64,000 bases of DNA from Podarcis vaucheri (lineage: Eukaryota). Under the pieces are notes generated by a model, which had not been told where the DNA came from, did no database searches, and saw only the letters and a program-made list of their open reading frames with translations. Location of the stretch: the NCBI GenBank assembly GCA_965113315.1, contig OZ220371.1, one strand, 5' to 3'. This document shows, one piece after another, positions 1-54,200 of this stretch. Position 1 is the first letter of the stretch. Each line of letters opens with the position of its first letter. The translations under genes were made by a program, and so were the position numbers.

Positions 1-672
1 TAAGAATCACGATTCAATCCTTTCCTCTTTGAACTAACCACTGGACCTCTCCAGTGTTAGGTTATAATGGGAAACTATGATTACTTTAAAAGAGGAAGCA
101 AGGATGGAGAGGGGAAGGGGACAAGTCTGAGGCTCATTCTTACAACACTAAACCACAGCTTTTGTGCTCTATCTAAAACAGCCCACGTGGGGAGGTAATC
201 TAACTATCGTATTTGTGAAGCATTTACTCTGGTGTTCAAAACACCTTGGGAATAAAGTAAAATTTGTAACACACCTCCCTCCCCTGCAATTGTAACTTAT
301 AAAACTCGACATAATGAATCAATAATTGAAAAAAGACACGGAAGGGTACAGCATACATTTCTGGGAAAGACAGTTTTCTCTAAATATATTTCTTCCCACA
401 ATTGCTTTTAAATGGGAACTGGATCATCTTTCTACACAGTTGCACCACAAAATCTGCATCTGTGTGCTGAAAATACAAACCAATAATGAATTGCAAGACT
501 AAGCACCAAGTATATGATAATGTCTATTACTACACAGTGTACAAATTAAAGTTCTTGGTTGCATGGGCATTTTAATATATGCTATTATAATGCCTTGGAA
601 GTATTCCATAAAATATGGTGCCCAGCTCTTCTCAACTCTATATTGAAGTTGTGAACATCTACCAGCAACGTA

Positions 673-914
673 CAGTGGTACCTCGGGTTAAGTACTTAAT
701 TCGTTCCGGAAGTCCGTTCTTAACCTGAAACTGTTCTTAACCTGAAGTACCACTTTAGCTAATGGGGCCTCCCACTGCTGCTGCGCCGCCAGAGCACGAT
801 TTCTGTTCTCATCCTGAAGCAAAGTTCTTAACCCAAGGTACTATTCCTGGGTTAGCGGATTCTGTAACCTGAAGCGTATGTAACCTGAAGCGTATGTAAC
901 CCAAGGTACCACTG
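673..914 (+). mobile_element. Tc1/mariner (Tigger/pogo-like) MITE, family A
   Basis: TIRs CAGTGGTACCTCGGGTTA / TAACCCAAGGTACCACTG, TA on both flanks, 242 bp; near-identical copies at 12609, 44509 and 63654. Confidence 0.9.
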
Positions 915-2069
915 TACCTAGCTGAGATATGTCTAATTATAGTATTTCCTTTTGTACTCAGAAAATACATGCAGACAAGAATGGAGACAATTCTCTTCAC
1001 TGCCATACACCCATCGTCTGTCTTGAATTATTGCCATGACAACTTTCTTCTGTCTGCAAAAATTAAGACGCAACCTACCCTGAAGTTCTGTATCTTGTCC
1101 AACCAATTGGAGACATCACCAAATCTGTACACATCAGAAAGGAATTTCTAGAATGCTGGAGGTCACATTAAGTTCTTTCAAGTTTCCCTAACCCATTGTC
1201 ATTCAGTGTGTCTGCTATATAATTTTGCATGGACAGAGGCTACAATTGGAGTTATCAAGCAAGCAAATTTGTTCAAACCAAATGAAAGGCATTTCTATAG
1301 CATGAGTCCCTAAGGTTCAAAGCCAATTTTCTTTTCTTTTTTTCCATGTGGACAGGATTGCCTATTATTGGGGATATTTCAGTCCACCATGCGTGTACAA
1401 ATTAATGACATTCTGCTTTGCATTTGAAAGAAACTGAGATTTAAAACTAGTCTACTGCTTTCTTCTTACAATAAGTTAATGAAATGGAAGGATAACAACA
1501 AGATTAACAAAGGGTAATGACTTGGAATGACTGAAGAAAAGTATCTGCCCCGTCACTTTTCTGCTTCTGTAATAAAGACACTTCGGTAACAATGTATTCT
1601 TTTCTCTAAATGAAAGCAAACATCAACTAAATAAAGGTTAGCTTCCCATAAACAAGAACACTACATATTATTTAACCAACTTATCAATACCTTTGTTTAG
1701 TTGTCTGATGAAAGCTACAGAACTCATGTCTTATTGATTGTGGGACAAAAAGTAATTCAAATTATTTGAAAACCCATGTTCTTTTTTCCCTCAGTGACAC
1801 AATACAGCAAATTACAGATCACAACATATTTTGGTTGCTTCCTGGTTTACAGTTCTATTTTTGCACAACCAGAAATATGTGGCCCAACAAATCTACAAAG
1901 CCTTTGTATGAGCTAAATTTTACTTATGCACATATTTTTGGACTGAATGGCCCAATGCATAATGACACTACAGAGAAATATTCACTGCTTCAGAAGCCTG
2001 GGAGTCTCTTTAGTGGTTTAACATGATACAAACAGTTCCTCTGATGGCATAAATAAGATTTTGCTTTCT

Positions 2070-12030: not shown

Positions 12031-12608
12031 GCCCTCATCTCAAGATTCCTCCCTTGTTTAGTATACTTCATAAAACTGAATGTTAGGTGCTTGGGTGCAA
12101 TTCTGAAAATTCAAAGTGTATACATAGCAAACATTCCAAACGCGCAGCTCATTAAGAAGGCAGAATGTTTGCAGAAGACATACATAGATTAAATTGGGCC
12201 AGCAAAATATCAATATCTGAAACGAAATCAATTGCTAGTAGGGTTCTGTTTATAGTCATAGACTAACAGGAAGACCACCTCACTCCTGAGAGCAGTATCT
12301 TGGGATTGGCGGAGCCTCTCTAAGTGTGCTGCTGAAGAAAATGTGCTATGAGAAAAATGTGAATGGAATGCAGCAGTACTAAAGCAAATAGTCAAGACTG
12401 CCCGCATTCTTGTCAGCTGTTGGTGTTATCACGAGAAGAAAACATACGGTGGTGCTATTAATAGAAAGTTGCCTTTGGGGAATGTCTACCATTTGTAGTC
12501 TCAGAACAATTAGAAGTACAAGTTCATTTTATCAGTGATGAAACATCAACTATGTAGGTCAGAACCAACATTTAATAGAATGGTTATATTTGAGGGCATT
12601 CATAAATA

Positions 12609-12834
12609 CAGTGGTACCTTGGGTTAAGTACTTAATTTGTTCCAGAGGTCTGTTCTTAACCTGAAACTGTTCTTAACCTGAAGCACCACTTTAGCTAATG
12701 GAGCCTCCCGCTGCTGCCACGCCGCCAGAGCACGATTCCTGTTCTCATCCTGAAGCAAAGTTCTTAACCCGAGGAACTATTTCTGGGTTAGCGGAGTCTG
12801 TAACCTGAAGCGTATGTAACCTGAGGTACCACTG
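12609..12834 (+). mobile_element. Tc1/mariner MITE, family A
   Basis: Same TIRs and TA flanks; 226 bp, lacking one 16-bp subterminal repeat unit. Confidence 0.9.
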
Positions 12835-17160: not shown

Positions 17161-17891
17161 ACCCATGCAGTATCACTAACACATACTATCAAAATAGGTG
17201 ACATTTAAAAAAAATTCAATTGCTTAGAACTAAAATAGCAAAGCTTCAAACTAGAATCAAATGTATAAGTTATGGTTTTGACTGAATTTTTGTTAAGTGG
17301 GAGACGAAGCCCTAATACCTTCAGATCAAACAACCTGAAACAAAATACAACATAACATTTTCTAATTATGTAAGAAGAAATTAAACCTCTTCATGTTTGG
17401 GATTATATATAATAATGCAGTACCGTATTAATATGAAGCGTCTTGCCTATGTTCAGAATGACCAAGATACGGTCAGGACTATGTCAACTTTGACCCAATC
17501 TCTTGCTTACAGAACAATGACAGCAGCCACAATGTGAATCGATTTAGTGGATTTGCCAACCCCAGAGTCACTATGAGGGCCAACTCCTTTTTTATTAATT
17601 TGCTCATTGTTGTTCTTTGATGAATATCGGTTTTTCTTATTTTTGTCTGAGATGCTCCCCATGAGTTGATGAGTGTAAGGTGTAACTAGTGGCTGTGTCT
17701 GACTGGAAGGAGAGGGCTTTATCTCCTCAGAAGAAAAGGTGTCTGCATTTCTCCAGGTGAGAGATAGGCAAAAAGGAGTAGCTTTTCCATGTTGTATTTT
17801 GATGCCTTGTATATGATGTGCTTCTGTAGTTCTCAGTTGTTTTACCTATGTACGTAGTTTAGAGCTATTTACTGTTGCCTAATCATGCTGC

Positions 17892-18232
17892 GCTGTGGGT
17901 TAAACCACAGAGCCTAGGACTTGCCGATCAGAAGGTCGGAGGTTCGAATCCCCGCGACAGCGTGAGCTCCCGTTGCTCATTCCTTGCTTCTGCCAACCTA
18001 GCTGTTCGAAAGCACGTCAAAGTGCAAGTAGATAAATAGGTACCACTCCAGCGGGAAGGTAAATGGCATTTCCGTGCGCTGCTCTGGTTCGCCAGAAGCG
18101 GCTTAGTCATGCTGGCAACATGACCCGGAAGCTGTACACCGGTTCCCTCGGCCAATAAAGCGAGATAAGCGCTGCAACCCCAGAGTCGGTCACGACTGGA
18201 CCTAATGGTCAGGGGTCCCCTTTACCCTTTTT
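17892..18232 (+). mobile_element. Sauria SINE, near full length
   Basis: tRNA-like head with B box GGTTCGAATCC, Sauria core, TSD TAATCAT(G/A)CTGC. Confidence 0.9.
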
Positions 18233-25482: not shown

Positions 25483-25905
25483 CGCCAGCCCCACAAGCTC
25501 GGGGGACAGCGGGAGAGGCGCAGCGCGCCCTTCCCGCTGTCCCCCGACTTGGTTAGAAGGCTGGCGGGGGGAGAAGCCTGCTCCTCCCCGTCGCCAGCCC
25601 CGCAAACTCGGGGGACAGCGGGAGAGGCGCAGCGCGCCTTTGCCGCTGTCCCCCGACTTGTCTAGAAGGCTGGCGGGGCGAGAAGCCTGCTCCTCCCCGT
25701 CGCCAGCCCCGCAAACTCGGGGGACAGCAGCAGGGGCGCAACGCGCCTTTGCCACTGTCCCCCGACTTGGCTAGAAGGCTGGCGGGGGGAGAAGCCTGCT
25801 CCTCCCCGTCGCCAGCCCCGCAAACTCGGGAGACAGCGGCAGGGGCGCAGCGCGCCCTTCCCGCTGTCCCCCGACTTGGTTAGAAGGCTGGCGGGGGGGG
25901 AGCCT
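25483..25905. repeat. GC-rich minisatellite, 109-bp period, about 4 copies
   Basis: Units start at 25483, 25592, 25701 and 25810; each holds the hairpin GGGGGACAGCGG...CCGCTGTCCCCC. Confidence 0.95.
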
Positions 25906-26420
25906 GGTTTTGCGGGAGGCGGGGGAATCCCCCCGCCTCCCAGGAAAGCCAGGAGAAGCCGTGCAGCCCTTTTAAAAGGCGTGCGGCTTCTGCCAGTTTT
26001 GCGGGAGGTGGGGGAATCCCCCCGCCTCCCAGGAAAGCCAGGAGAAGCCGTGCAGCCCTTTTAAAAGGCGCGTGGCTTCTGCCGGTTTTGCGGGAGGCGG
26101 GGGAATCCCCCCGCCTCCCAGGAAAGCCAGGAGAAGCCGTGCAGCCCTTTTAAAAGGCGCGCGGCTTCTGCCGGTTTTGCAGGAGGTGGGGGAATCCCCC
26201 CGCCTCCCAGGAAAGCCAGGAGAAGCCGTGCAGCCCTTTTAAAAGGCGTGCGGCTTCTGCCGGTTTTGCGGGAGGTGGGGGAATTCCCCCACCTCCCAGG
26301 AAAGCCAGGAGAAGCCGCGATCTCTTTAAAGGGTTTGCACGGCTTCTGCGGGCTTTTAGGAGAGGTGAGGGAATCCCCTCACCTCCCAGTAAAGCCAGGA
26401 AAGCCCTGTGCAGCCCCTCC
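25906..26420. repeat. GC-rich minisatellite, 89-bp period, 5 copies plus a partial one
   Basis: Units start at 25906, 25995, 26084, 26173, 26262 and 26351; each has two hairpins (GGGAGGCGGGGG-AAT-CCCCCCGCCTCCC and GAAGCCG...TTTTAAAA...CGGCTTC). Confidence 0.95.
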
Positions 26421-28395
26421 GCCAAGGAGAGGCTGCACGGGGCTAAAGGGGAAGCCAAAACAGCGAGCGGGATCCATCCCGCTCGCTGCCTTGGCTTGAT
26501 CCATAGCTGCACGCAACCCCTCCGGCAGGGAGAGGTTGTGTGCAGCCTGTACGCTGCTCTTTGGGTCTGCGGGGGGGGAAAAGATTTTTTTTTCCTTGAA
26601 TTCCCCCCCTAAAAACTGGGTGCGCCCTATGGTCCGGTGCGCCCTATGGTGCGAAAAATAAGGTATGTCTCAGTTAAGTTCCTGCATTGCAGGACGTTGG
26701 ACTAGATGACCCTTGGGGTTCCTTCCAACTCGACAATTCTATATTTCTATAACATAGGCTAAGCATTTGTGTAGATCCTTTGTGGGTGCTACTTGCCAGC
26801 GAAACAGAAAACTATTAGATGAATGCATAAAGAAATTTATAGATAACAAAACCAATGGAGACCTGATTATAACTGTGCGGCATGGCTGCCAAAAACCACC
26901 TCAGGGTAATGGAGACAGACAAACTACAGCAGCGACTTCTGTACCTAGGTACAAACAGCGTTCTAGGGAACAGCTATTCTGAAATGTTGATGCCTGCCAT
27001 ATTCAAACTAGGGTTTTGGAAGCAATACTACTCTGTTTACTTTAGAACAAGGCCCAATACACCTACTTAGAATAGCCACAAGTTAGGCTGTTATACATAA
27101 GGTATCTACCAAATACCTAAACAGTTTTGAGAAAGCAAAGATCAAGTCTGAGAATCACTGAGGTTATACATCTTAGTGTGTGTCTCTGCAGTAGACCAAT
27201 CAGGATGATGATTCATCAGTGGGAGAGTTGTTAGTAAGAGACGCTTCAGTCTCTGGTGGGAGAAAAGCCCAATCTCCAGAAGTCCCAGTCCAATTGTTAG
27301 ATCTATAGCCCTCACTGATTTATGGCTCTGGTCAGCTACTAACTGGCAAAAGGTAGTGCAAGGTGGAAGGTGGGTTTGTGTCTCTCCATCCTTACCAGTG
27401 TCCAGAAAGATTTTCCTGCATTTTCCTCAATACGACAGTAGATGAGAAGAGGCAGGCAGAGGCAGCATCCTAGACCCCACTGAATAGTTGCAGAGGACTA
27501 CAAAAGCATGTACATTCTCACGTTGCATGGGGAAGTCAGCTAGGTGGGAAGCAGCACACAGCTGTTGCGTATACTACTTTGACCTGCCATGTGTCCCTGC
27601 CATTGTCAGGACACATTTCAACATTTACCAAGTGCAGCAGTGGCAGCAGGTCAAAAGAAGCGTAAGGGAGAATCATATGCCACTTCTAATGTAGCCACTA
27701 GAAAAAATTAAGTATATGCTCTTATGTACACGAGTGTTCTGTTTCCACTCATAGAAAGGGCAGGAAGGTATTTTCTGGTCTGGGTTGATATTTGTACAAC
27801 CAGCCATAGGGCAAAAAGCAGCACTTGTGGTTACAACCTAGAGAAAAGAATGGTTTCCTACTAAAAGCATCAGATGCATGTGTGAATTGTAGTAGTACAA
27901 ATTTTCTTTGAATGTGTGAAAATTACTTTATGGTGGTCCAAAATCCAGTGACCAATTGAATGCAATAAGGATAAACCTGCACATCATACATCCTTCTTGA
28001 AGAAAACTTATTGGACAAGTACGGATCTCAATATTCAATGCACTCACAGATTTTTCTACCTGACTTCTTACTCTGCTTACACTTATGAGGAATGGAATCC
28101 ACTAGAAAACTGTTGTCAGTTTTCAGCATATAAGTAAGACAGAAATATTGGAACTTGTATGATGGCAAACATTTCTTAGCCCAGAAAGCTGACAGGCATG
28201 CTGTAGTTAAAAAAGCAAAGAACTTTTTTGATTACCTATTCATGTTTATCAGCACCTTGCCTTCTGGTACATATTTTAAGGAGTTTCTTGTAAAAAAAAT
28301 GCTAATACATACTATTTTGGCAAACATGTACAAAACATTATACACAACTAACAAATTCCATTTCACTTGCTTTGAAGGGGAAAAAATAGCAAAGG

Positions 28396-28727
28396 CTCAA
28401 CCAGAGCCAGGGCTTTTTCGGCTGTGGCTCCAATCTGGTGGAACGCTCTGTCACAAGAGACTAGGGCCCTGCGGGACTTGACATCTTTCCGCAGGGCCTG
28501 CAAGACAGAGCTGTTCCACCAGGCCTTTGGCCAGGGCACAGCCTGACTCCCTCCTTTGGCAATCTTCACAGAACTTTAGCCTAATAGTTGCCATCAATTT
28601 GATTTGAATTAATTTTATAATGAAATGATTTTAGAATGTTGTACTATTTTATTGTTGTTAGCCGCCCTGAGCCCGGCTTCAGCTGGGGAGGGTGGGATAT
28701 AAATAAAATTTATTTATTATTATTATT
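28396..28727 (+). mobile_element. L2-clade LINE 3' end
   Basis: Encodes RARAFSAVAPIWWNALSQETRALRDLTSFRRACKTELFHQAF, then a 3' UTR with a gccgccctgag...gggatataaataaa terminus and (TTA)n. Confidence 0.8.
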
Positions 28728-28992
28728 AAGTGCTTCTTAGAGCAACTGTAAGAGCAGAGCACAGAAGGATCCCAATGCCATTGAACTTAGTGCTTAGTGG
28801 TAGAGTAGTATAATTTTTTTCTTTCACAATAAATATGAAGAATACTTGAACACTGGTATAAAGCCTTCATAGTAAATCAGTAGCTTCATAGGAGTGGATT
28901 ATTCTAGTAATATATATTAATTGCTTAATTCTTATTAAAAAAAAAATCTCCATGCCTCAGTGCTTTGCTTAAAATTACTTTAAATTACTCAC

Positions 28993-29499
28993 CTTTGACT
29001 TTATGTAGAATGGAGATGACTGCTGATGTATTGCTAAGTCCATGATACTATTTGAGTTTGTGACAGTATTACTATTAGTGCGTTCATCATCTCTGCTGCT
29101 TTCATCAGATTGATCAAAATCATCACTGTCCTGGTCCATTTCTTCCTCTTCCTCCATCTCCTCCTCCTCTTGTTCACCAGCATGTTCATCTTCCTCCTCC
29201 TCTTCTTGGTTACCAGAATATTCTTCATCCACTGCAATAAATCTGTTGTTGTTTTCTTCTAACTGTTCTTGCTGGGACTCATTTCTGTGGCAAAGTCCAG
29301 GCTCCCCACCACCTATTTCCCCATTCCTTGCCGCGTGCGCTTCCTCTTGTTGCCGTAATTGTTGCTGCTGCTGCTGTTGCTCCTCCTCCACCACTCGATT
29401 CATCTGCTCTTCATCGACTTGGCTTGAGGAAGCATTACCTCGAACAGACCCACCAGTTCGTCGTCTCTTACTGCCGACAGACAGCAGTTCTTGATTCAT
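28993..29499 (-). CDS. FBXW7: FBXW7 alpha-isoform-specific coding exon, 169 codons (partial CDS)
   Basis: Translation MNQELLSVGSKRRRTGGSVRGNASSSQVDEEQMNRVVEEEQQQQQQQLRQQEE...SSPFYIKSK matches the FBXW7-alpha N-terminus as I recall it (KRRR NLS, SSSQ, acidic tract). ATG at 29499-29497; phase-0 donor AAG|GTGAGT after 28993. Confidence 0.97.
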
Positions 29500-29568
29500 T
29501 TCCAAAAGCCAGCTTGCTACTTCTTGGACCTTTGCTAGACTATCTGAAGATGCAAATGTTTTCACATT
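29500..29568 (-). other. FBXW7: 69-nt 5' UTR part of the alpha exon, following the splice acceptor
   Basis: Minus strand reads tctctacctctgctttttcttcttctcAG|AATGTGAAAAC: a strong polypyrimidine tract with AG at 29570-29569. Confidence 0.9.
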
Positions 29569-30359
29569 CTGAGAAGAAGAAAAAGCAGAGGTAGAGAACA
29601 AAGATTAGACACTTTATCAACGTATCAGTTATTTATACAGAGCTGGGTTTCACGTATTGCCCTGACTCAAGAACAGTTCTAAGCCCAGCATGGAAGCCTT
29701 ATTTTAAACGTGAAGCTGTAATATGGCCATTCCAATACCAAATTAAGCCCTCTTTTTATGCATTTTATAGTAAGTAATTAGTTTTATACCTTTAGATTAA
29801 CTCCAAGTGTCAAGATGGAGGGGGGAAAGAATATGAACACTGAGCACTAAATGGCCCCATTAATATAATAAAGTTTTTGTGGTCCATAAAACCTAAGTTA
29901 GGCACCCTGGGCAGTGCCAATTATAATGAAAGCAATATAGAAAAAGAAATTGATTGTCTCTGAAAAGTTTCTTCTAAAAATTAATTTCCTTCATAACTGG
30001 TTAGGGAGAATGTGCTTTCCACAATTATGCTAATTATTTCATTTGACAATGTATCTTAAGCGAAGTTGTTGATGACAAGATGAAAACATGCAGAAGGTCC
30101 TCAATGTGAAAAACAAACCAGTGGCTATTCAGCTGGATACAAAATATAACCCAAAAAGACTGCATTTTAAAAGGGTATTTGGGGGTCTGTTTATAAGAAC
30201 TCAAGCTGCTAAATTAGAGTAGATGTCATTAATTGATCAATCAGACATTTCTAGATCACACTTTTGTAGAAATACAACATGACAGTGAGCACTATAACAA
30301 AACTCACAATACCAACTAAAGCATCAATAAAACATCAGAAAAAGTCCATAAATACATTT

Positions 30360-30990
30360 TACACATTTCATATTTTAAAGGCCTGTCTAAATAACAGGGG
30401 CAATGTCTGAAAGAAGGCAGGGGTGATTTCTGAACTTTTACTGGCAAGGAGTTCCGTCTGCAGCACATGGCCTGTCACACTAAAGGCTTGATCCCTAGTA
30501 AAGGCCAATCAAACTTGAGGGGTGTGAGGAACTACAAGTAGTGCCCCATCAAAGGATCTCAGTGATCGAGGTGGAGCATAAGAGAGGCAGGCGGTCCTTA
30601 AGGTACATTGGTCCCAAGTTGTTCAGGGCTTTGTGAATTAACCCAAGAACCTCACACCTGACCCAGTAGCAAACTGGTAACCTGTGCAAAGCTCTCAGCA
30701 GAGAAGTCACGTGCTGCCAGTTGCCTGGTCCTGTGAGCAGTCTGGCCATAACATTCTGCACTAACTGCAGCTTTTGGGTAGCCCCACATAAAGAACATTA
30801 CAATAATCAAGTCTTGAGGTTACCAATGGGGCACTGTGATCAAGCTACTGCGGTGCAGGAACAGGCACAGCTGGTAATACTGAGGGAGGCCAGCATGCTA
30901 GCAGAAAAAGGCTTCCAAAGTACCTCGGCCACCCTGCTGGAACCAAAGGCTGCTGTAGCAGCAGCGGTGGACTACCCAGTGTGAAGTCCT
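30360..30990 (-). mobile_element. L2-clade LINE ORF2 C-terminal fragment
   Basis: QNVMARLLTG...HVTSLLRALHRLPVCYWVRCEVLGLIHKALNNLGPMYLKDRL is the typical L2 C-terminal motif. Confidence 0.85.
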
Positions 30991-32510
30991 TAAGGATATG
31001 CAGGAGTTCTTCTATCTGATGCATGTACCCATTTAAAGTATTATCTACGAACAGCAAACACCTGGCGGTTACGGTGAGGGACCCAGATGCTGGGCACAAA
31101 GGAGCCCTTCCTGTCTACCTTCATAGCACTGATCTTAGGTCAGCTGGTGGGCAGAAACAGAACTCTGATTATGATCAGAGCAGCGAAGCCTCTGAGGTGC
31201 GTAGAGATCGCACTTTTTAAAATGTTTATATATGCAGAAGTCTCAGCTAAACACAAATTCATTCCAAATATCTGTGTAATGGAATTAGTATAAGTATTAC
31301 TTTTAAAATTAAACCATGTCATTTTACAAAGGAAGCATACCATGTATTTAAACATAAAATTATTCAACCCCATAAATTCAAGCTGTAGCATGTTGACTGT
31401 AAGTCATGTGGAGTGATAGGATGATGGAGACATTCTTTTATTTTTACCCCAAACATATAACATAACATAGGCCATGATTTCATGTATGATACCTATACAA
31501 AACATACCGTATTACTTGTGAGAAACATGCACCCACTTTTTTCAAAAAAACTCAATGACTGAGAAACATATTTGATTAATTTCAAATTAAAATTTCTATA
31601 AAATTGATTTCCAATGCTATTTGTAACCCATATATTTTTGATGGTTCACTATCTATTTCACACAGATTTCATTTAATACATTGTGCCAGAAGAAGCACAG
31701 TTCTACGTATAAAAATAGCAATGGCAGACATACATATTTCTCAGAAGCATGTGGTGTTGTGTAATATAAGCAGATAAATATACACATTTGTTACAGAAAA
31801 GCCTTGAATTGTGCTTAGTCATTAAGTGAGCGATTACTATCAAATTATATCAAAGGTATAATTTACACTAACCAATACCACTAGCAATAATGAAACAGCA
31901 GCTGTAATTTTTATTGGCTAAGTATGCAGCTTTTGGAATAACTACAAAAAATTCTGGTCACAATCTGAACAAGTATTTTTAAACTAGTGTAAGGGCTTCT
32001 ACTTATCTAGGTAGAGTGAACATTAATTCCCCATACGATACCACAAACTGCTTTTGCAATTCCCTTCCGTTTCAGAGGTCCTATAAAGCCTCTGGAGGAG
32101 AGGTTGTTCAAGAAACAAAAATCAAAAAGACTTTGGAACATGTGGAACTAACTGATCGGTTCTTTATATATGTGCCAACACAGAATAACAGGGCTAACAC
32201 AATTGGAAGATCACCGATAAATTAAGGAATTAATTGATTTACAACATCCCTTCCTTATAAAAATATCATAGATGATACAACATAATGGGTAGTGGCTGAG
32301 AGCCTAACCTAGAAGCTCCCAGTTCAGCTCTCATCTCAGTCCCAAGTTCACTAGGTGGCCTTAGAAAACCTACTTCTCTCAGCCTTGGTCACCACAACAC
32401 ATAGCCCTAGAATAGTAGAATCATCCCCATATCTACTCTAGGGGGGCTGCTGTAAGGATTACACAGCTAGCATGTCAAACTATGAGGAACATTCTAAGGT
32501 ATGCAGGAGG

Positions 32511-32857
32511 TCTAAACCACTGAGCCTAGGGCCTGCCGATCGGAAGGTTGGCAGTTCGAATCCCCACAATGGGGTGAGCTCCCGTTGCTAGGGTCCCTGC
32601 TCCTGCCAACCTAGCAGTTTGAAAGCACGTCAAAATGCAAGTAGATAAATAGGTACCACTGTGGCAGGAAGGTAAACGGCATTTCCGTGCACTGCTCTGG
32701 TTCGCCAAAAGCGGCTTAGTCATGCTGGCCACATGACCCGGAAAAACTGTCTGCGGACAAATGTCGGCTCCTTTGGCCAGTAAAGCAAGTTGAGCGCCGC
32801 AACCCCAGAGTCGTTCGCGACTGGACTTAACTGTCAGGGGTTCTTTACCTTTACTTT
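32511..32857 (+). mobile_element. Sauria SINE
   Basis: B box AGTTCGAATCC, Sauria core, TTTACCTTTAC tail. Confidence 0.9.
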
Positions 32858-33091
32858 AAGGTACATTACCATCATTACCTTGTTAGGTATTATCCCATCT
32901 CCTATGAACAAGCACCTTTGGTTATGGAAAAGCTCTCACAAACACCAGTGCCACACAATGATATTGCAACAGTGAAGTTTAAACATAAAACATACTCAGA
33001 TCGCAACACTGATTAGAAGTACAGTATTGTCAAATATGGTTATGTTGGGAGGCTGAAAAAGAAAATATGTTAAGTGAATTCCCATGTTGAC

Positions 33092-37700: not shown

Positions 37701-38074
37701 CTGCCCATTCCTGTTGTACACAGAGTAAGTCTTTCACAGCTCACTGACCCACTGTAGCACTTCCCACAGGAGAGGGTAGCCAATGGGTCTCAAACCCTTG
37801 GTGAGTTAGGGACTTCCCCAGCATGTTAAGACAGGTCACTTCCAAGTTTTGCTCTGCAGCAAAAGCAGGCAGGATGGCACAGCTCCAGCAGTTTGACTTC
37901 ACCCCCGGAGGCACACTCCATTGTCTCTCGAGACACATGGATGCCAACAACTATTTGCTTTCTAGTGATAAATAATATTAAATTAAAAAGTAAATGTTAC
38001 GTATCAAAGTATTTTGTTCTGTAATGCATTCTGAATTACTGCTATAGAATTGTGGTGATTTAATCTGGACATTA

Positions 38075-38431
38075 AAGGTAAAGGTACCCCTGCCCGTACG
38101 GGCCAGTCTTGCCAGACTCTAGGGTTGTGCGCCCATCTCACTCAAGAGGCCGTGGGCCAGCGCTGTCCGAAGACACTTCCGGGTCACGTGGCCAGCGTGA
38201 CATCGCTGCTCTGGCGAACCAGAGCCGCACACGGAAACGCCGTTTACCTTCCCGCTGGTAAGCGGTCCCTATTTATCTACTTGCACCCGGAGGTGCTTTC
38301 GAACTGCTAGGTTGGCAGGCGCTGGGACCGAACGACGGGAGCGCACCCCGCCGCAGGGATTCGAACCGCCGACCTTTCGATCGGCAAGCCCTAGGTGCTG
38401 AAGCTTTTACCCACAGCGCCACCTGCGTCCC
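38075..38431 (-). mobile_element. Sauria SINE, full length, young
   Basis: AAGGTAAAGGTA tail on the plus strand, CpGs retained, perfect 14-bp TSD TAATCTGGACATTA at 38061-38074 and 38433-38446. Confidence 0.93.
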
Positions 38432-43779: not shown

Positions 43780-44508
43780 GTCTATAGTCAGGAATTATGA
43801 GAGCTATGGTGTAAAACATCTGGAGAGTACTAGGTTAGGGAAGCTGTGCTGCAACTTTAACTTCAACAATTCATTAAAACACAGAAATTTTGAAGAGTTC
43901 AAGCTATGTTGCTCACATTGTGTTAAGAGTAAATCCACTTTCATTCCCACAAGGGTTGGGGGATATACAGTGTAATGAAGGAGAGTTATTTATGCCTTCT
44001 ATAGCAACTGCCAGACATTCTTTAGGGAGGCCGAAATCAGATTTTGAGAACTCTCAGTCAAGACACAAGGAAAACTTTCATTTTGAAGGAATAACTACTA
44101 GTCTCTCTACTACTGTTAGCCATGCTCTCATTAGACAGAGGAGTTTATAAGTATTTCTGTGCTATGAGAAATGTACTGATACCAGGAAAAGTGCTTATCT
44201 GCTTTTCCCTGATAATTAGTATGAAGCAGAATCAATGGTTGTTGTTACAGAATCAAAATGTGCCAGAAAAAAATAATTAATAAAGTATAATAAATCATTA
44301 GACCCAAACACCACATTGGGGAATTTTGGAGAAGCATTAGGAAGAGGCAGCACCGCTAGGAACAATACAAAATCTCATTAAAATCTACTATTACACAAGA
44401 GAATTGGATTGTAGTGAATGCTCTACTAGAACTCTGCATTTTAAAGCATGTGAGTAGATACAATTTAAGAGAACTGTGAGAAATACCCTAACAAAGAAAT
44501 TAAAAATA

Positions 44509-44750
44509 CAGTGGTACCTCTTGTTACGTACTTAATTCGTTCCGGAGGTCCATTCTTAACTTGAAATTGTTCTTAACCTGAAGCACCACTTTAGCTAATG
44601 GGGCCTCCCGCTGCTGCCGCGCAACCGCCGTGTGATTTCTGTTCTCATCCTGAAGCAAAGTTCTTAACCCGAGGTACTATTTCTGGGTTAGCGGAGTCTG
44701 TAACCTGAAGCGTATGCAACCTGAAGCGTATGTAACCCGAGGTACCACTG
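44509..44750 (+). mobile_element. Tc1/mariner MITE, family A
   Basis: Same TIRs, TA flanks, 242 bp. Confidence 0.9.
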
Positions 44751-44884
44751 TATTTGAAAAATGGCCAGAAGAGGAGCACATATAAAAAGAAGATATCCAA
44801 AGCTTATCAATATAAGAGTTACAGGGCCAAGGAATCAACAAACATAAACTGTTTCTATCCTTTTTTTTTTTAGAATAATCTTTT

Positions 44885-51285: not shown

Positions 51286-54200
51286 ATCTAAGCCTTTCAT
51301 TTCTAAGGCAGCCACCAATTCTGCCAGACAACGCAACACCAAAACTTGTAGTGAGTTCAGAATGCCCTGAAACAGGACAATGAACAGCTTCAATAAACAC
51401 ACAGAGAAACAAACCTCAGTGTATGCATTCAACCATTTGCATGCCTCAAGGGCCTTTCTGGATCACATCCTTGAAGTCAATTTATATCTTGATCACTAGT
51501 AGAAGTAATTTACATAATAAACAGTGCCACTGACATGTGTTGATCTGATCCTGCTGAGAGCCTGCAGCTTTAACCAAACTTCAAGGGGTGTGGGGAGAAA
51601 ACAAACTACCAGGAAAATGGCTCTTCTTGAGACTGGAGCATATGAATGCCAACTACCAAGCAATCTGAACAGCGCAGCCCTTGTACTGGGGAACAACAGG
51701 CCACATCCTGCAAAGTATTTGTCCATGGTCAGGTCATCCCCTATGCACTGTGTGGCTTGGATCCTAATAACCGCTCACCTAGTTTCACCCACTGAGAAGG
51801 TTTGGTCATTTTTTTAAAAAAAACATCAGGTTGCCATGCCACATGACAATCCTTTGCAATATAGCATAGGGGTTTGCTACTCAAAGGAAAGCAGAAAGAC
51901 ATTCCATTGGGCTGATCCACACCTCTGAGTGTACCTAAAGCAGCTCTTTAGATACTAGTTTTGATCTGTAAGCACAGAAGAATGGAGCTGTGTTTCTGGT
52001 GCTCCGAGAGATATCTGGATCAGGCTGACTTTTCAGATCTACTAAATTTGATATATGTATGCATAGGGAAGTTAGTTTTACTATGTATCAACTTGTAGAA
52101 TGGGAAGAGAGTGCAAATTTACAAAAGTAAAACCATATATATGGTTTGCATATATCAGTCATGTTCTTCAATTACTTCAGAATTGCACATTATATTGAAA
52201 CATCACAGGTCACAAAACTGGAAAATACTACTGTAATTTGAGCAGAAACATACTTATTTTATAAATACAGGAGCACTGGTGTGGGAAGAAGTTAAGCAGT
52301 TCTTATTCAAACGAGAAACTGTTTCTGAACATCCAGCACTTTTAGAGCAACTCTAAGCTGCAGTCACAAACATCCATTAGAGTGTTCCACAATTCAGAGC
52401 AAGCAAGTGGTTGTCAGTGCAGCCAGTAAATCACCTGATCCTATTACAAAATCAATTACTGCAGCACATTTCTATTGCTACACAACCTGATGATGGCAAA
52501 ATGATATTGGATAGCTGCTGCAAGGTCAAAAAAAACTAAAAACATTTTAAAATGTGTCTTATTTTAGGTCCACATTGCATCTATTTTAAAGGAAATATTT
52601 TTAATAAAGCTGTATAGTTACCTTCTTTGGCTGATTGGGACATTCGATGGATAGTCTCTGCAACTGGTCTGATGTATGGCTGCAAGATAGGAGATCGGAA
52701 CAGCAGGTCGAACGGCCCAGCCTCTTCATTAAAGAAGAAATAATGCTGCAGCCACAGCCACACATTGACTTGCTCATCAGATGAGTTTATTCCTTAAGAA
52801 ATCAGTACTGGTACTGGCCCACACACAATCAAAATTGGCCGACCGCCTCATTCTGCAGCTCCCTGGCAAAAATTAATACTGATAAAAATAAAACAATGGT
52901 GTTTTTTTCCGAAGCTAATGCTAGTAGTCACTGTCTTTATTGCCAAGCAAAGCTCGCAATCTTAAAGTGCCTCTTTCCAGCTACACTTTTGCAAGACAAG
53001 CTGCTTTGATGCTCTCCACTGTTTTGCAAGAAAGCCATGAACTTAAAGTAACAGACACTGCACACTGACTAGAGTTTGTTTCTCTGTAGCACTTCAGGTC
53101 TGCTTTGATAGCCTCTATCCAACCTGTTCCCACTTTGAACACGCAGTCTTCCAACAGCCAACAGAAAATAGCCACACCCCTCTGTGTTCACATGATCACT
53201 ATTCAAGATCCGCTCAATATCTGAAAAAGTACTGTTGCTGCATTGCTGAGAGTAACAACAGTGTAGAGATTACTGGCTGGAATCTAATTTGCCAGTCAGA
53301 GCTCCCGACCCTTCAAGACTCTAACGTTCAGGGTACCTGCCAGTTCCACTTAGATTAATGTATTTTCTTTACTGCCAAACTTTGCCATTTTCCCTATGTT
53401 AAATATACACCCCACTTCAGCCTAACAAACCTAAGAGCAAAGTGCAGAAAGCTGTCTTATGAAAATACAACTCTGGAGAAAAGGCTAACACCATTACAAA
53501 CTTATACATACCAACCCAACAACTAACAGAGCGGGGAACAAATTTCAGCTAAAAAAAGAGCCAAAGCAATGGAAAACATAACAGCCAAAGGGTTTTAGTA
53601 AAGGAAACATGGAATTAACTTATTGGATATCTACCTCAGAGGGGGAAAGTTTGCAAATTGATTCAGACAAGTGGGGGTTATGGGGGGGGAGGAACTAAAT
53701 AAAATCATTTGCCTTGTCTTTGTCTCCCAAAGTTAATGTTTCAATATTTAAATAAAATAACTTTTCCTCAATAACACTGCTGTATTTCTAATTTCCCTTG
53801 TTTAATTGATCCTCAATGTAAAACAGAAAAAACCCCAAACAAATATAAAACATAAAAAGCTTGCAGATGCTTCCATAGCAGTACTAATTGCAAGTGCTAT
53901 ATATCAGTAGATGACATGCTGGTCTTTCAGCTATTAAAAGCAGTGCATTTATCTGTCTTACTGCAGCATGCACTAGAGTATTTGAAAAGAGAGAGAGAGC
54001 TCACGTTAACACAGATGCTCAACCTGATTACAGGATAATCTGCCTTGAAATAATTGTCACTTACATTGATAGAGCTATCAGCCGTTGCCTATAAAATCCC
54101 TTTTATCAAATGGTTAAGAAAAAGCAAGTGGCATGACAGCAGCTTAAGCGCACATATTCAAGCAAAACTTCTTGTTTTCGCTCTGCATCAAAAGCTATAT

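What the first reader, a model, noticed from the sequence alone, without database searches (positions are those of the whole stretch)
28993..29568. Alpha exon is a 576-nt phase-0/0 exon with no stop in the FBXW7 frame: possible endless-ORF circRNA
Seen: acceptor to donor is 576 nt, exactly 192 codons, from AAT (N) to AAG (K). It is open throughout, including the 69-nt UTR part. Established: the human ortholog of this exon is part of circ-FBXW7, reported to be translated into FBXW7-185aa, where an extra short exon leads to termination. Inference: back-splicing of this exon alone joins K to N in frame. That gives a circle with no stop codon and could allow rolling-circle translation of a repeated NLS plus acidic domain. 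The exon sits between long introns, which favours circularisation.
Basis: partly seen in the sequence, partly recalled or inferred. Interest (0 to 1): 0.7.

Follow-up and report, generated by a model that had tools for sequence, protein, structure and literature searches.

The report
Overlooked longer FBXW7 isoform
The supposed untranslated leader of this lizard FBXW7 exon matches protein sequence conserved from sawfish to mammals and likely belongs to a longer, cysteine-rich form of the tumour suppressor begun by an exon 23 kb upstream, which explains why a circle of this exon has no stop codon; translation of that circle is untested.

Summary
Observation confirmed on the minus strand: 576 nt, AG/GT ends, frame open, alpha ATG at offset 69. 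The 69 nt are not ordinary UTR. An exon at 52777-52622 encodes a 52-residue Cys-rich N-terminus ending in a phase-0 donor. It and the alpha exon equal residues 1-244 of RefSeq Podarcis muralis FBXW7 isoform X1 (52/52, 191/192). Against killifish the extension is 43/52 and 21/23 identical, the acidic part of the same exon 58/139. The circle is real in a sauropsid: published duck circ-FBXW7 is one exon of 558 nt, exactly 69 nt plus 163 mallard codons. The human circle adds a 50-nt exon that stops the frame. Lizard reads were too shallow to show any junction. Rolling-circle translation: no evidence, about 8%. The lead worth following is the uncharacterised long isoform, predicted to be S-acylated and membrane-targeted; I found it in database models but in no paper searched.

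The parts
28993..29568 (-). FBXW7 alpha exon, 576 nt, phase 0/0; internal coding exon of the long isoform; would be the stop-free circle if back-spliced alone
   Evidence: 191/192 identical to residues 53-244 of Podarcis muralis isoform X1 P0094
29500..29568 (-). 23-codon leader: 5'UTR for the alpha isoform, likely coding in the long isoform; predicted helix running into the alpha start
   Evidence: 23/23 gecko, crocodile, echidna, gibbon, 17-21/23 teleosts, 13/23 sawfish; helix 60-82 of a low-confidence model
28993..29499 (-). alpha-isoform coding part, 169 codons from ATG 29499: basic KRRR motif (29469-29458; NLS label from the literature, not tested) and acidic/Gln-rich tract
   Evidence: 49 D/E and 16 K/R in the 192-residue unit; NLS near Ser10 in review passage
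52622..52777 (-). upstream coding exon, 52 codons (MSKSMCGCGCSIISSLMKRLG...), 7 Cys, amphipathic helix at residues 10-22; phase-0 donor AAG|GTAACT; second in-frame ATG at 52765
   Evidence: 52/52 with P0093-P0096; hydrophobic moment 0.65-0.70; 31 of 32 hits at E<=1e-10
52778..52862 (-). candidate 5' untranslated part of the upstream exon if the acceptor before 52862 is used; holds a 24-codon out-of-frame uORF from 52851 whose stop overlaps the ATG at 52777
   Evidence: the exon's 5' end is not shown by any RNA data
29569..29600 (-). polypyrimidine tract and AG acceptor of the alpha exon
28987..28992 (-). donor GTGAGT of the alpha exon
38074..38419 (.). repeat copy inverted relative to copies at 17890-18229 and 2424-2662 across the exon (78-80% over 248-349 nt), 8.5 kb and 10.8 kb from the splice sites; weak possible back-splicing aid

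Best explanation
The 69-nt leader and an exon 23 kb upstream match a conserved 70-76-residue N-terminal extension that is likely translated as a longer FBXW7 isoform, so the alpha exon is a phase-0/0 internal coding exon and a circle made from it lacks a stop as a by-product. Mechanism: initiation at Met1 or Met5 of the upstream exon (inferred; both contexts weak, so leaky scanning to the alpha ATG is plausible), splicing 52622->29568 in phase 0 (inferred from orthologous models), then through the alpha exon into the common F-box/WD40 exons. The Cys cluster plus basic amphipathic helix is predicted to be S-acylated and to tether this isoform to membranes, against the nuclear signal just downstream (inferred, about 0.4). 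The exon also likely back-splices at low level, as in duck, most likely as a non-coding AUG circRNA.
For: Window exon + alpha exon = residues 1-244 of P0094. Identity to lizard, upstream exon / leader / acidic part: crocodile 50/52, 23/23, 104/139; echidna 45/52, 23/23, 105/139; frog 41/52, 20/23, 73/139; killifish 43/52, 21/23, 58/139; sawfish 34/52, 13/23, 54/139. Of 226 protein records held, 86 carry the upstream exon and 81 join it in frame to the leader; Met5-Cys6 kept in 81 of 86. Of 215 records with the alpha-start anchor, 180 have a homologous open leader, 35 begin at the anchor (uninformative), 0 have anything else. Length differences are whole residues (70-76). In unnamed genomic-type ORFs, similarity begins at Met and ends at K-V, the read-through of AAG|GT, in 24 of 25 true new hits (read by eye): independent of gene models. 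One copy in the genome; common exon begins in phase 0. S-acylation analogy: EFR3A/B N-terminal Cys clusters are palmitoylated and needed for membrane targeting (PMC11941745 passages).
Against: The 52622->29568 junction was not seen in RNA here; the joined forms are automatic gene models, which can copy from each other. The Logan-derived long proteins seen join other 5' sequence to the leader, none the Cys-rich exon, so the isoform may be rare or tissue-restricted. Protein records cannot show species with a broken leader, and counts are records, not species. No codon-level dN/dS (no orthologous DNA; one search found none). No human or mouse record with the extension appeared; the gibbon model starts at Met17 and has Cys26->Ser. 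Human 5'RACE of 115 clones reported no new ORF (PMC3498124). Acylation is untested; models of the extension are low confidence (pLDDT 51-77 alone, under 50 in full length).
Confidence: 0.85

Rival explanations
1. The single-exon circle is translated round and round into repeats of the 192-residue unit (basic NLS plus acidic tract), and this product is under selection.
For: Frame 0 of the circle has no stop and holds the alpha ATG. Duck circle is one exon, 558 nt = 69 + 163 codons of mallard P0191, and its 158-bp divergent amplicon is exactly what a 69-nt leader gives. IRES activity reported for the 120 nt before the human ORF (PMC6019044 passage). Endogenous infinite-ORF circles are listed in a review.
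Against: The open frame needs no circle to explain it. The human circle includes a 50-nt exon and terminates. Infinite ORFs occur in 8% of AUG circRNAs, and Ribo-seq shows no frame bias across back-splice junctions as a class (PMC6487579 passages). The duck circle had 5 versus 1 reads, FDR 1, and the passages read report no translation test.
Confidence: 0.08
2. The leader is conserved as RNA (IRES, splicing or circularisation signal) and the upstream 'exon' is a conserved non-coding element with an accidental ORF copied between gene models.
For: AUG circRNA 5'UTRs are more conserved than control exons without ORF conservation; IRES activity reported; no RNA junction seen here.
Against: Similarity starts at Met and stops at the phase-0 donor in unnamed genomic ORFs; indels are whole residues and changes mostly conservative across fish and amniotes.
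Confidence: 0.05
3. The open, in-phase leader is a coincidence of this genome.
For: Single-genome chance is 0.05-0.10.
Against: Homologous open leader in 180 of 180 informative protein records from sharks to mammals, subject to ascertainment bias.
Confidence: 0.02

Closest known systems
FBXW7 alpha, beta, gamma isoforms
   Same: Alternative N-termini spliced in phase 0 onto common F-box/WD40 exons; N-terminus sets location (review PMC6081812 passages; Pfam F-box-like and WD40 on P0094).
   Different: The long form extends alpha by 70-76 residues from a further exon rather than replacing it; not among the three isoforms described; no Pfam family for the extension.
RefSeq model 'FBXW7 isoform X1' (Podarcis muralis P0094 and orthologues)
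   Same: 52/52 and 191/192 identical over the two exons: this is that model.
   Different: Automatic prediction without described function; junction not verified here.
Duck circ-FBXW7 (novel_circ_000094, PMC10570413)
   Same: Single alpha exon, same splice sites by arithmetic, multiple of three, leader open in mallard.
   Different: 558 versus 576 nt; treated as a miRNA-binding RNA in the passages read, which do not note the stop-free frame; not shown in the lizard.
Human circ-FBXW7 / FBXW7-185aa (hsa_circ_0001451, PMC6019044)
   Same: Contains the orthologous exon and ATG; 167 residues shared with alpha.
   Different: Two exons, 620 nt; the inferred 50-nt exon shifts the frame and gives a finite ORF.
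Infinite-ORF circRNAs (circEGFR, circ-E-Cad, circCORO1C, circASPH, tau 12->7)
   Same: Stop-free circle with an in-frame AUG (review PMC11263353 passage).
   Different: No translation evidence here.
EFR3A/B N-terminal palmitoylated Cys cluster
   Same: Three Cys within the first ten residues, present in only some isoforms, membrane-targeting.
   Different: Analogy only; no sequence homology shown (one search found no credible hit outside this exon family).

Membership tests
FBXW7 alpha exon orthologue | Sequence homology, single locus, splices to common F-box/WD40 exons | tested here: met
Internal symmetric coding exon of a long isoform | Upstream in-frame coding exon with start codon and phase-0 donor | tested here: met
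Internal symmetric coding exon of a long isoform | Protein-level conservation of exon and leader across vertebrates | tested here: met
Internal symmetric coding exon of a long isoform | Spliced junction present in RNA of this species | not tested
   the two exons lie 23 kb apart; no lay covered both
Internal symmetric coding exon of a long isoform | Translation shown (ribosome footprints, peptides) or codon-level purifying selection | not testable with these tools
   no such data; no orthologous DNA found
Exonic AUG circRNA | Back-splice junction reads in this species | tested here: inconclusive
   exon depth at most about 5, acceptor end not covered, no returning joint listed
Exonic AUG circRNA | Orthologous single-exon circle, RNase R resistant | tested here: met
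   duck, published; identity with this exon by length and amplicon arithmetic
Exonic AUG circRNA | Long flanking introns or close inverted repeats | tested here: inconclusive
   23.1 and 39.4 kb to known coding neighbours; best inverted pair 78% and 8.5-10.8 kb away
Rolling-circle-translated circRNA | Length multiple of three, no stop, in-frame start | tested here: met
Rolling-circle-translated circRNA | Polysome association, junction footprints or peptide, multimeric product | not testable with these tools
   none found in searches (listings) or the passages read
S-acylated N-terminal membrane anchor (EFR3-like) | Conserved N-terminal Cys cluster next to a basic amphipathic helix | tested here: met
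S-acylated N-terminal membrane anchor (EFR3-like) | Palmitate incorporation and Cys-dependent membrane location | not testable with these tools
   bench test needed
Cys/Arg N-degron (ADO) substrate | Met-Cys start followed by a preferred basic or hydrophobic residue | tested here: not met
   MCG is a non-preferred motif in PMC12377780 passages; 63 of 86 records start at Met1, not Met5

The most novel reading that the evidence does not exclude
Jawed vertebrates keep a fourth FBXW7 isoform whose Cys-rich N-terminal extension is lipid-modified and moves the SCF-FBXW7 ligase to membranes, with a different substrate pool; it was missed because apes and perhaps rodents have eroded or rarely express it. 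A bolder add-on (about 0.08): the resulting stop-free single-exon circle is translated as a concatemer in sauropsids, while a 50-nt exon caps it in humans.
Probability: 0.4. Interest if true: 0.72.

Novelty: new variant of a known kind. Interest (0 to 1): 0.5.

Why it matters
FBXW7 is a major tumour suppressor whose isoforms are defined by where their N-termini send them. A conserved, uncharacterised extension with a candidate lipid anchor is a directly testable route to membrane substrates and changes how the alpha '5'UTR' and the proposed circ-FBXW7 IRES should be read. It also shows a trap: conserved stop-free leaders in AUG circRNAs can come from hidden linear isoforms. The duck circle offers a validated endogenous stop-free circle for a clean rolling-circle test.

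Tried and rejected
Run search: no RNA holder listed on record among 24 rows; not evidence. Read lay on 28000-29470 with 4 of those 24 runs: exon bins had depth 0-5.2 in two raw RNA runs of one study, all first mates on + (fits a minus-strand RNA in a usual stranded library), none in the two contig sets; output dominated by a repeat at 28400-28700; no returning joint; 37 loose ends not shown; the acceptor end was not covered. No power either way. Nearest flanking repeats (28200-28800 versus 30200-31100) gave no significant inverted match. Strict scan for further small exons between the two exons returned none; uninformative. Metagenome scan for orthologous DNA: 596 pattern matches, none confirmed. 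Pfam and ESM Atlas: nothing for the 52-residue exon; one weak repeat-protein hit (P0252) dropped as spurious. AlphaFold models too weak for a fold search. ADO/N-degron idea dropped. P0056, labelled lamprey, looks teleost-like and was not used to date the exon. PMC12045569 mentions FBXW7 only as a ligase. Earlier-findings look-ups returned nothing.

Full report
Observation. The feature lies on the minus strand, 29568->28993: 576 nt, 192 codons from AAT to AAG, no stop, with a CAG acceptor after a pyrimidine tract and a GTGAGT donor. Around the circle frame 0 has no stop, the others 9 and 20; the alpha ATG is at offset 69. The locus is single-copy in the genome. In one genome this state has a chance of about 0.05-0.10.

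The leader is protein sequence. Searching with the 192-residue translation gave 67 proteins among 484 candidates; many cover the whole query, and snake, turtle, crow, seal, frog and teleost records continue upstream into the same Cys-rich peptide. That peptide is encoded in this window at 52777-52622, 52 codons ending in a phase-0 donor, 23,053 nt from the alpha acceptor. A search with the extension found 68 longer proteins among 89 candidates. The two window exons equal residues 1-244 of RefSeq Podarcis muralis isoform X1 (52/52 and 191/192), followed by the common exon, which in this genome starts in phase 0, 39,382 nt downstream.

Conservation. For 20 hand-picked orthologues, the upstream exon and leader are better kept than the acidic part of the alpha exon: killifish 43/52 and 21/23 against 58/139, sawfish 34/52 and 13/23 against 54/139. 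Over the 226 records then held, 86 have the upstream exon, 81 joined in frame to the leader; 63 start at Met1, 16 at Met5, 5 at Met17, 2 otherwise; of 215 with the alpha anchor, 180 have the open leader, 35 start at the anchor, none differs. These are redundant records found by searching with this sequence, and a broken leader could not appear in them. A model-independent check: phmmer over 1.84 billion representatives gave 32 hits, 31 at E<=1e-10; in the 25 true new ones similarity starts at Met and in 24 ends at K-V, the read-through of the AAG|GT donor (read by eye). Against: joined forms are automatic models; the Logan-derived long proteins seen use other 5' sequence; the gibbon model lacks the first 16 residues; no human or mouse record with the extension appeared; human 5'RACE found five non-coding exons and no new ORF (PMC3498124, parts 1-2 of 5 read; its figure and Table S2 not seen and may bear on whether one of them is this exon).

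The circle. Human circ-FBXW7 is 620 nt from two exons spanning 1227 nt, with a 185-residue ORF sharing 167 residues with alpha (PMC6019044 and PMC13018996 passages; the supplement was listed but not opened). With a 69-nt leader these numbers give 570 + 50 nt, a 607-nt intron and a stop at leader nt 5-7, where the lizard has TGA. In duck, circ-FBXW7 is 'one_exon', 558 nt, checked by RNase R and Sanger sequencing, with 5 versus 1 reads (PMC10570413 passages, section 3.2 and one supplement row). The mallard protein has the open leader and 163 alpha codons, 558 nt, and the 158-bp divergent amplicon matches a 69-nt leader exactly. In lizard reads the exon depth was at most about 5 and the acceptor end was not covered, so circularisation here is open. 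Inverted repeats across the exon are distant and about 78% alike.

Mechanism. Shown: the exon, its open frame, the upstream exon, their match to a conserved extension. Inferred: splicing and translation of the long isoform (0.85). Predicted: Cys6/8/10 and Cys25/26 with an amphipathic basic helix at 10-22 (hydrophobic moment up to 0.70; helices 11-19, 36-44, 60-82 in a weak model; no docking on the body in a weak full-length model) act as an S-acylated membrane anchor, by analogy with EFR3 (PMC11941745 passages); about 0.4. An N-degron role is disfavoured (PMC12377780 passages). Any internal symmetric coding exon gives a stop-free circle, so the open frame is no evidence of rolling-circle translation. 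As a class AUG circRNAs have infinite ORFs in 8% of cases and show no frame bias over junctions (PMC6487579 passages), though some endogenous infinite-ORF circles are reported translated (PMC11263353 passage). I put functional rolling-circle translation at 0.08.

Novelty. A review lists three isoforms (PMC6081812 passages). Searches for an extended, palmitoylated, unannotated or fourth isoform and for the literal peptides (listings only, open-licence library) showed no paper describing the long form, and searches for a rolling-circle or single-exon FBXW7 circle (listings) showed only the duck paper. The isoform is therefore in databases but apparently uncharacterised: a new variant of a known kind. 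Interest 0.5.

Noticed in passing
window 52851-52777 (-): A 24-codon out-of-frame uORF ends with a TGA whose last base is the A of the long isoform's first ATG (stop-start overlap), a possible reinitiation or dampening device if this stretch is in the mRNA.
   Followed up: partly
window 29567-29562 (-): Minimal start-stop ATG-TGA at exon nt 2-7, out of frame; the same TGA position is inferred to end human FBXW7-185aa.
   Followed up: partly
window 25483-26416: Two adjacent GC-rich tandem arrays in the downstream intron, period 109 (3.9 copies) and period 89 (5.7 copies), giving a CpG-rich patch.
   Followed up: no
window 28400-28700 and 30400-30900: Interspersed repeats flanking the exon; the first draws many reads from other copies, the second has an open frame resembling a LINE end (label recalled). 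No significant inverted match between them.
   Followed up: partly
proteins P0002-P0008, P0182, P0183, P0191, P0217: Several species have models in which the long N-terminus and alpha exon end in short unrelated tails without F-box or WD40, suggesting truncated alpha-only products comparable to FBXW7-185aa.
   Followed up: no
protein P0121 (gibbon): Model starts at Met17 and has Cys26->Ser, hinting at erosion of the Cys cluster in apes.
   Followed up: no
protein P0056: Record labelled Lampetra planeri reads like a teleost sequence; possible mislabel.
   Followed up: no
window 671-916, 12604-12824, 44504-44752: Three copies of a ~250-nt repeat about 90% alike in direct orientation, and further 82% repeat copies at 2423-2669, 17901-18229, 32513-32858.
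   Followed up: no
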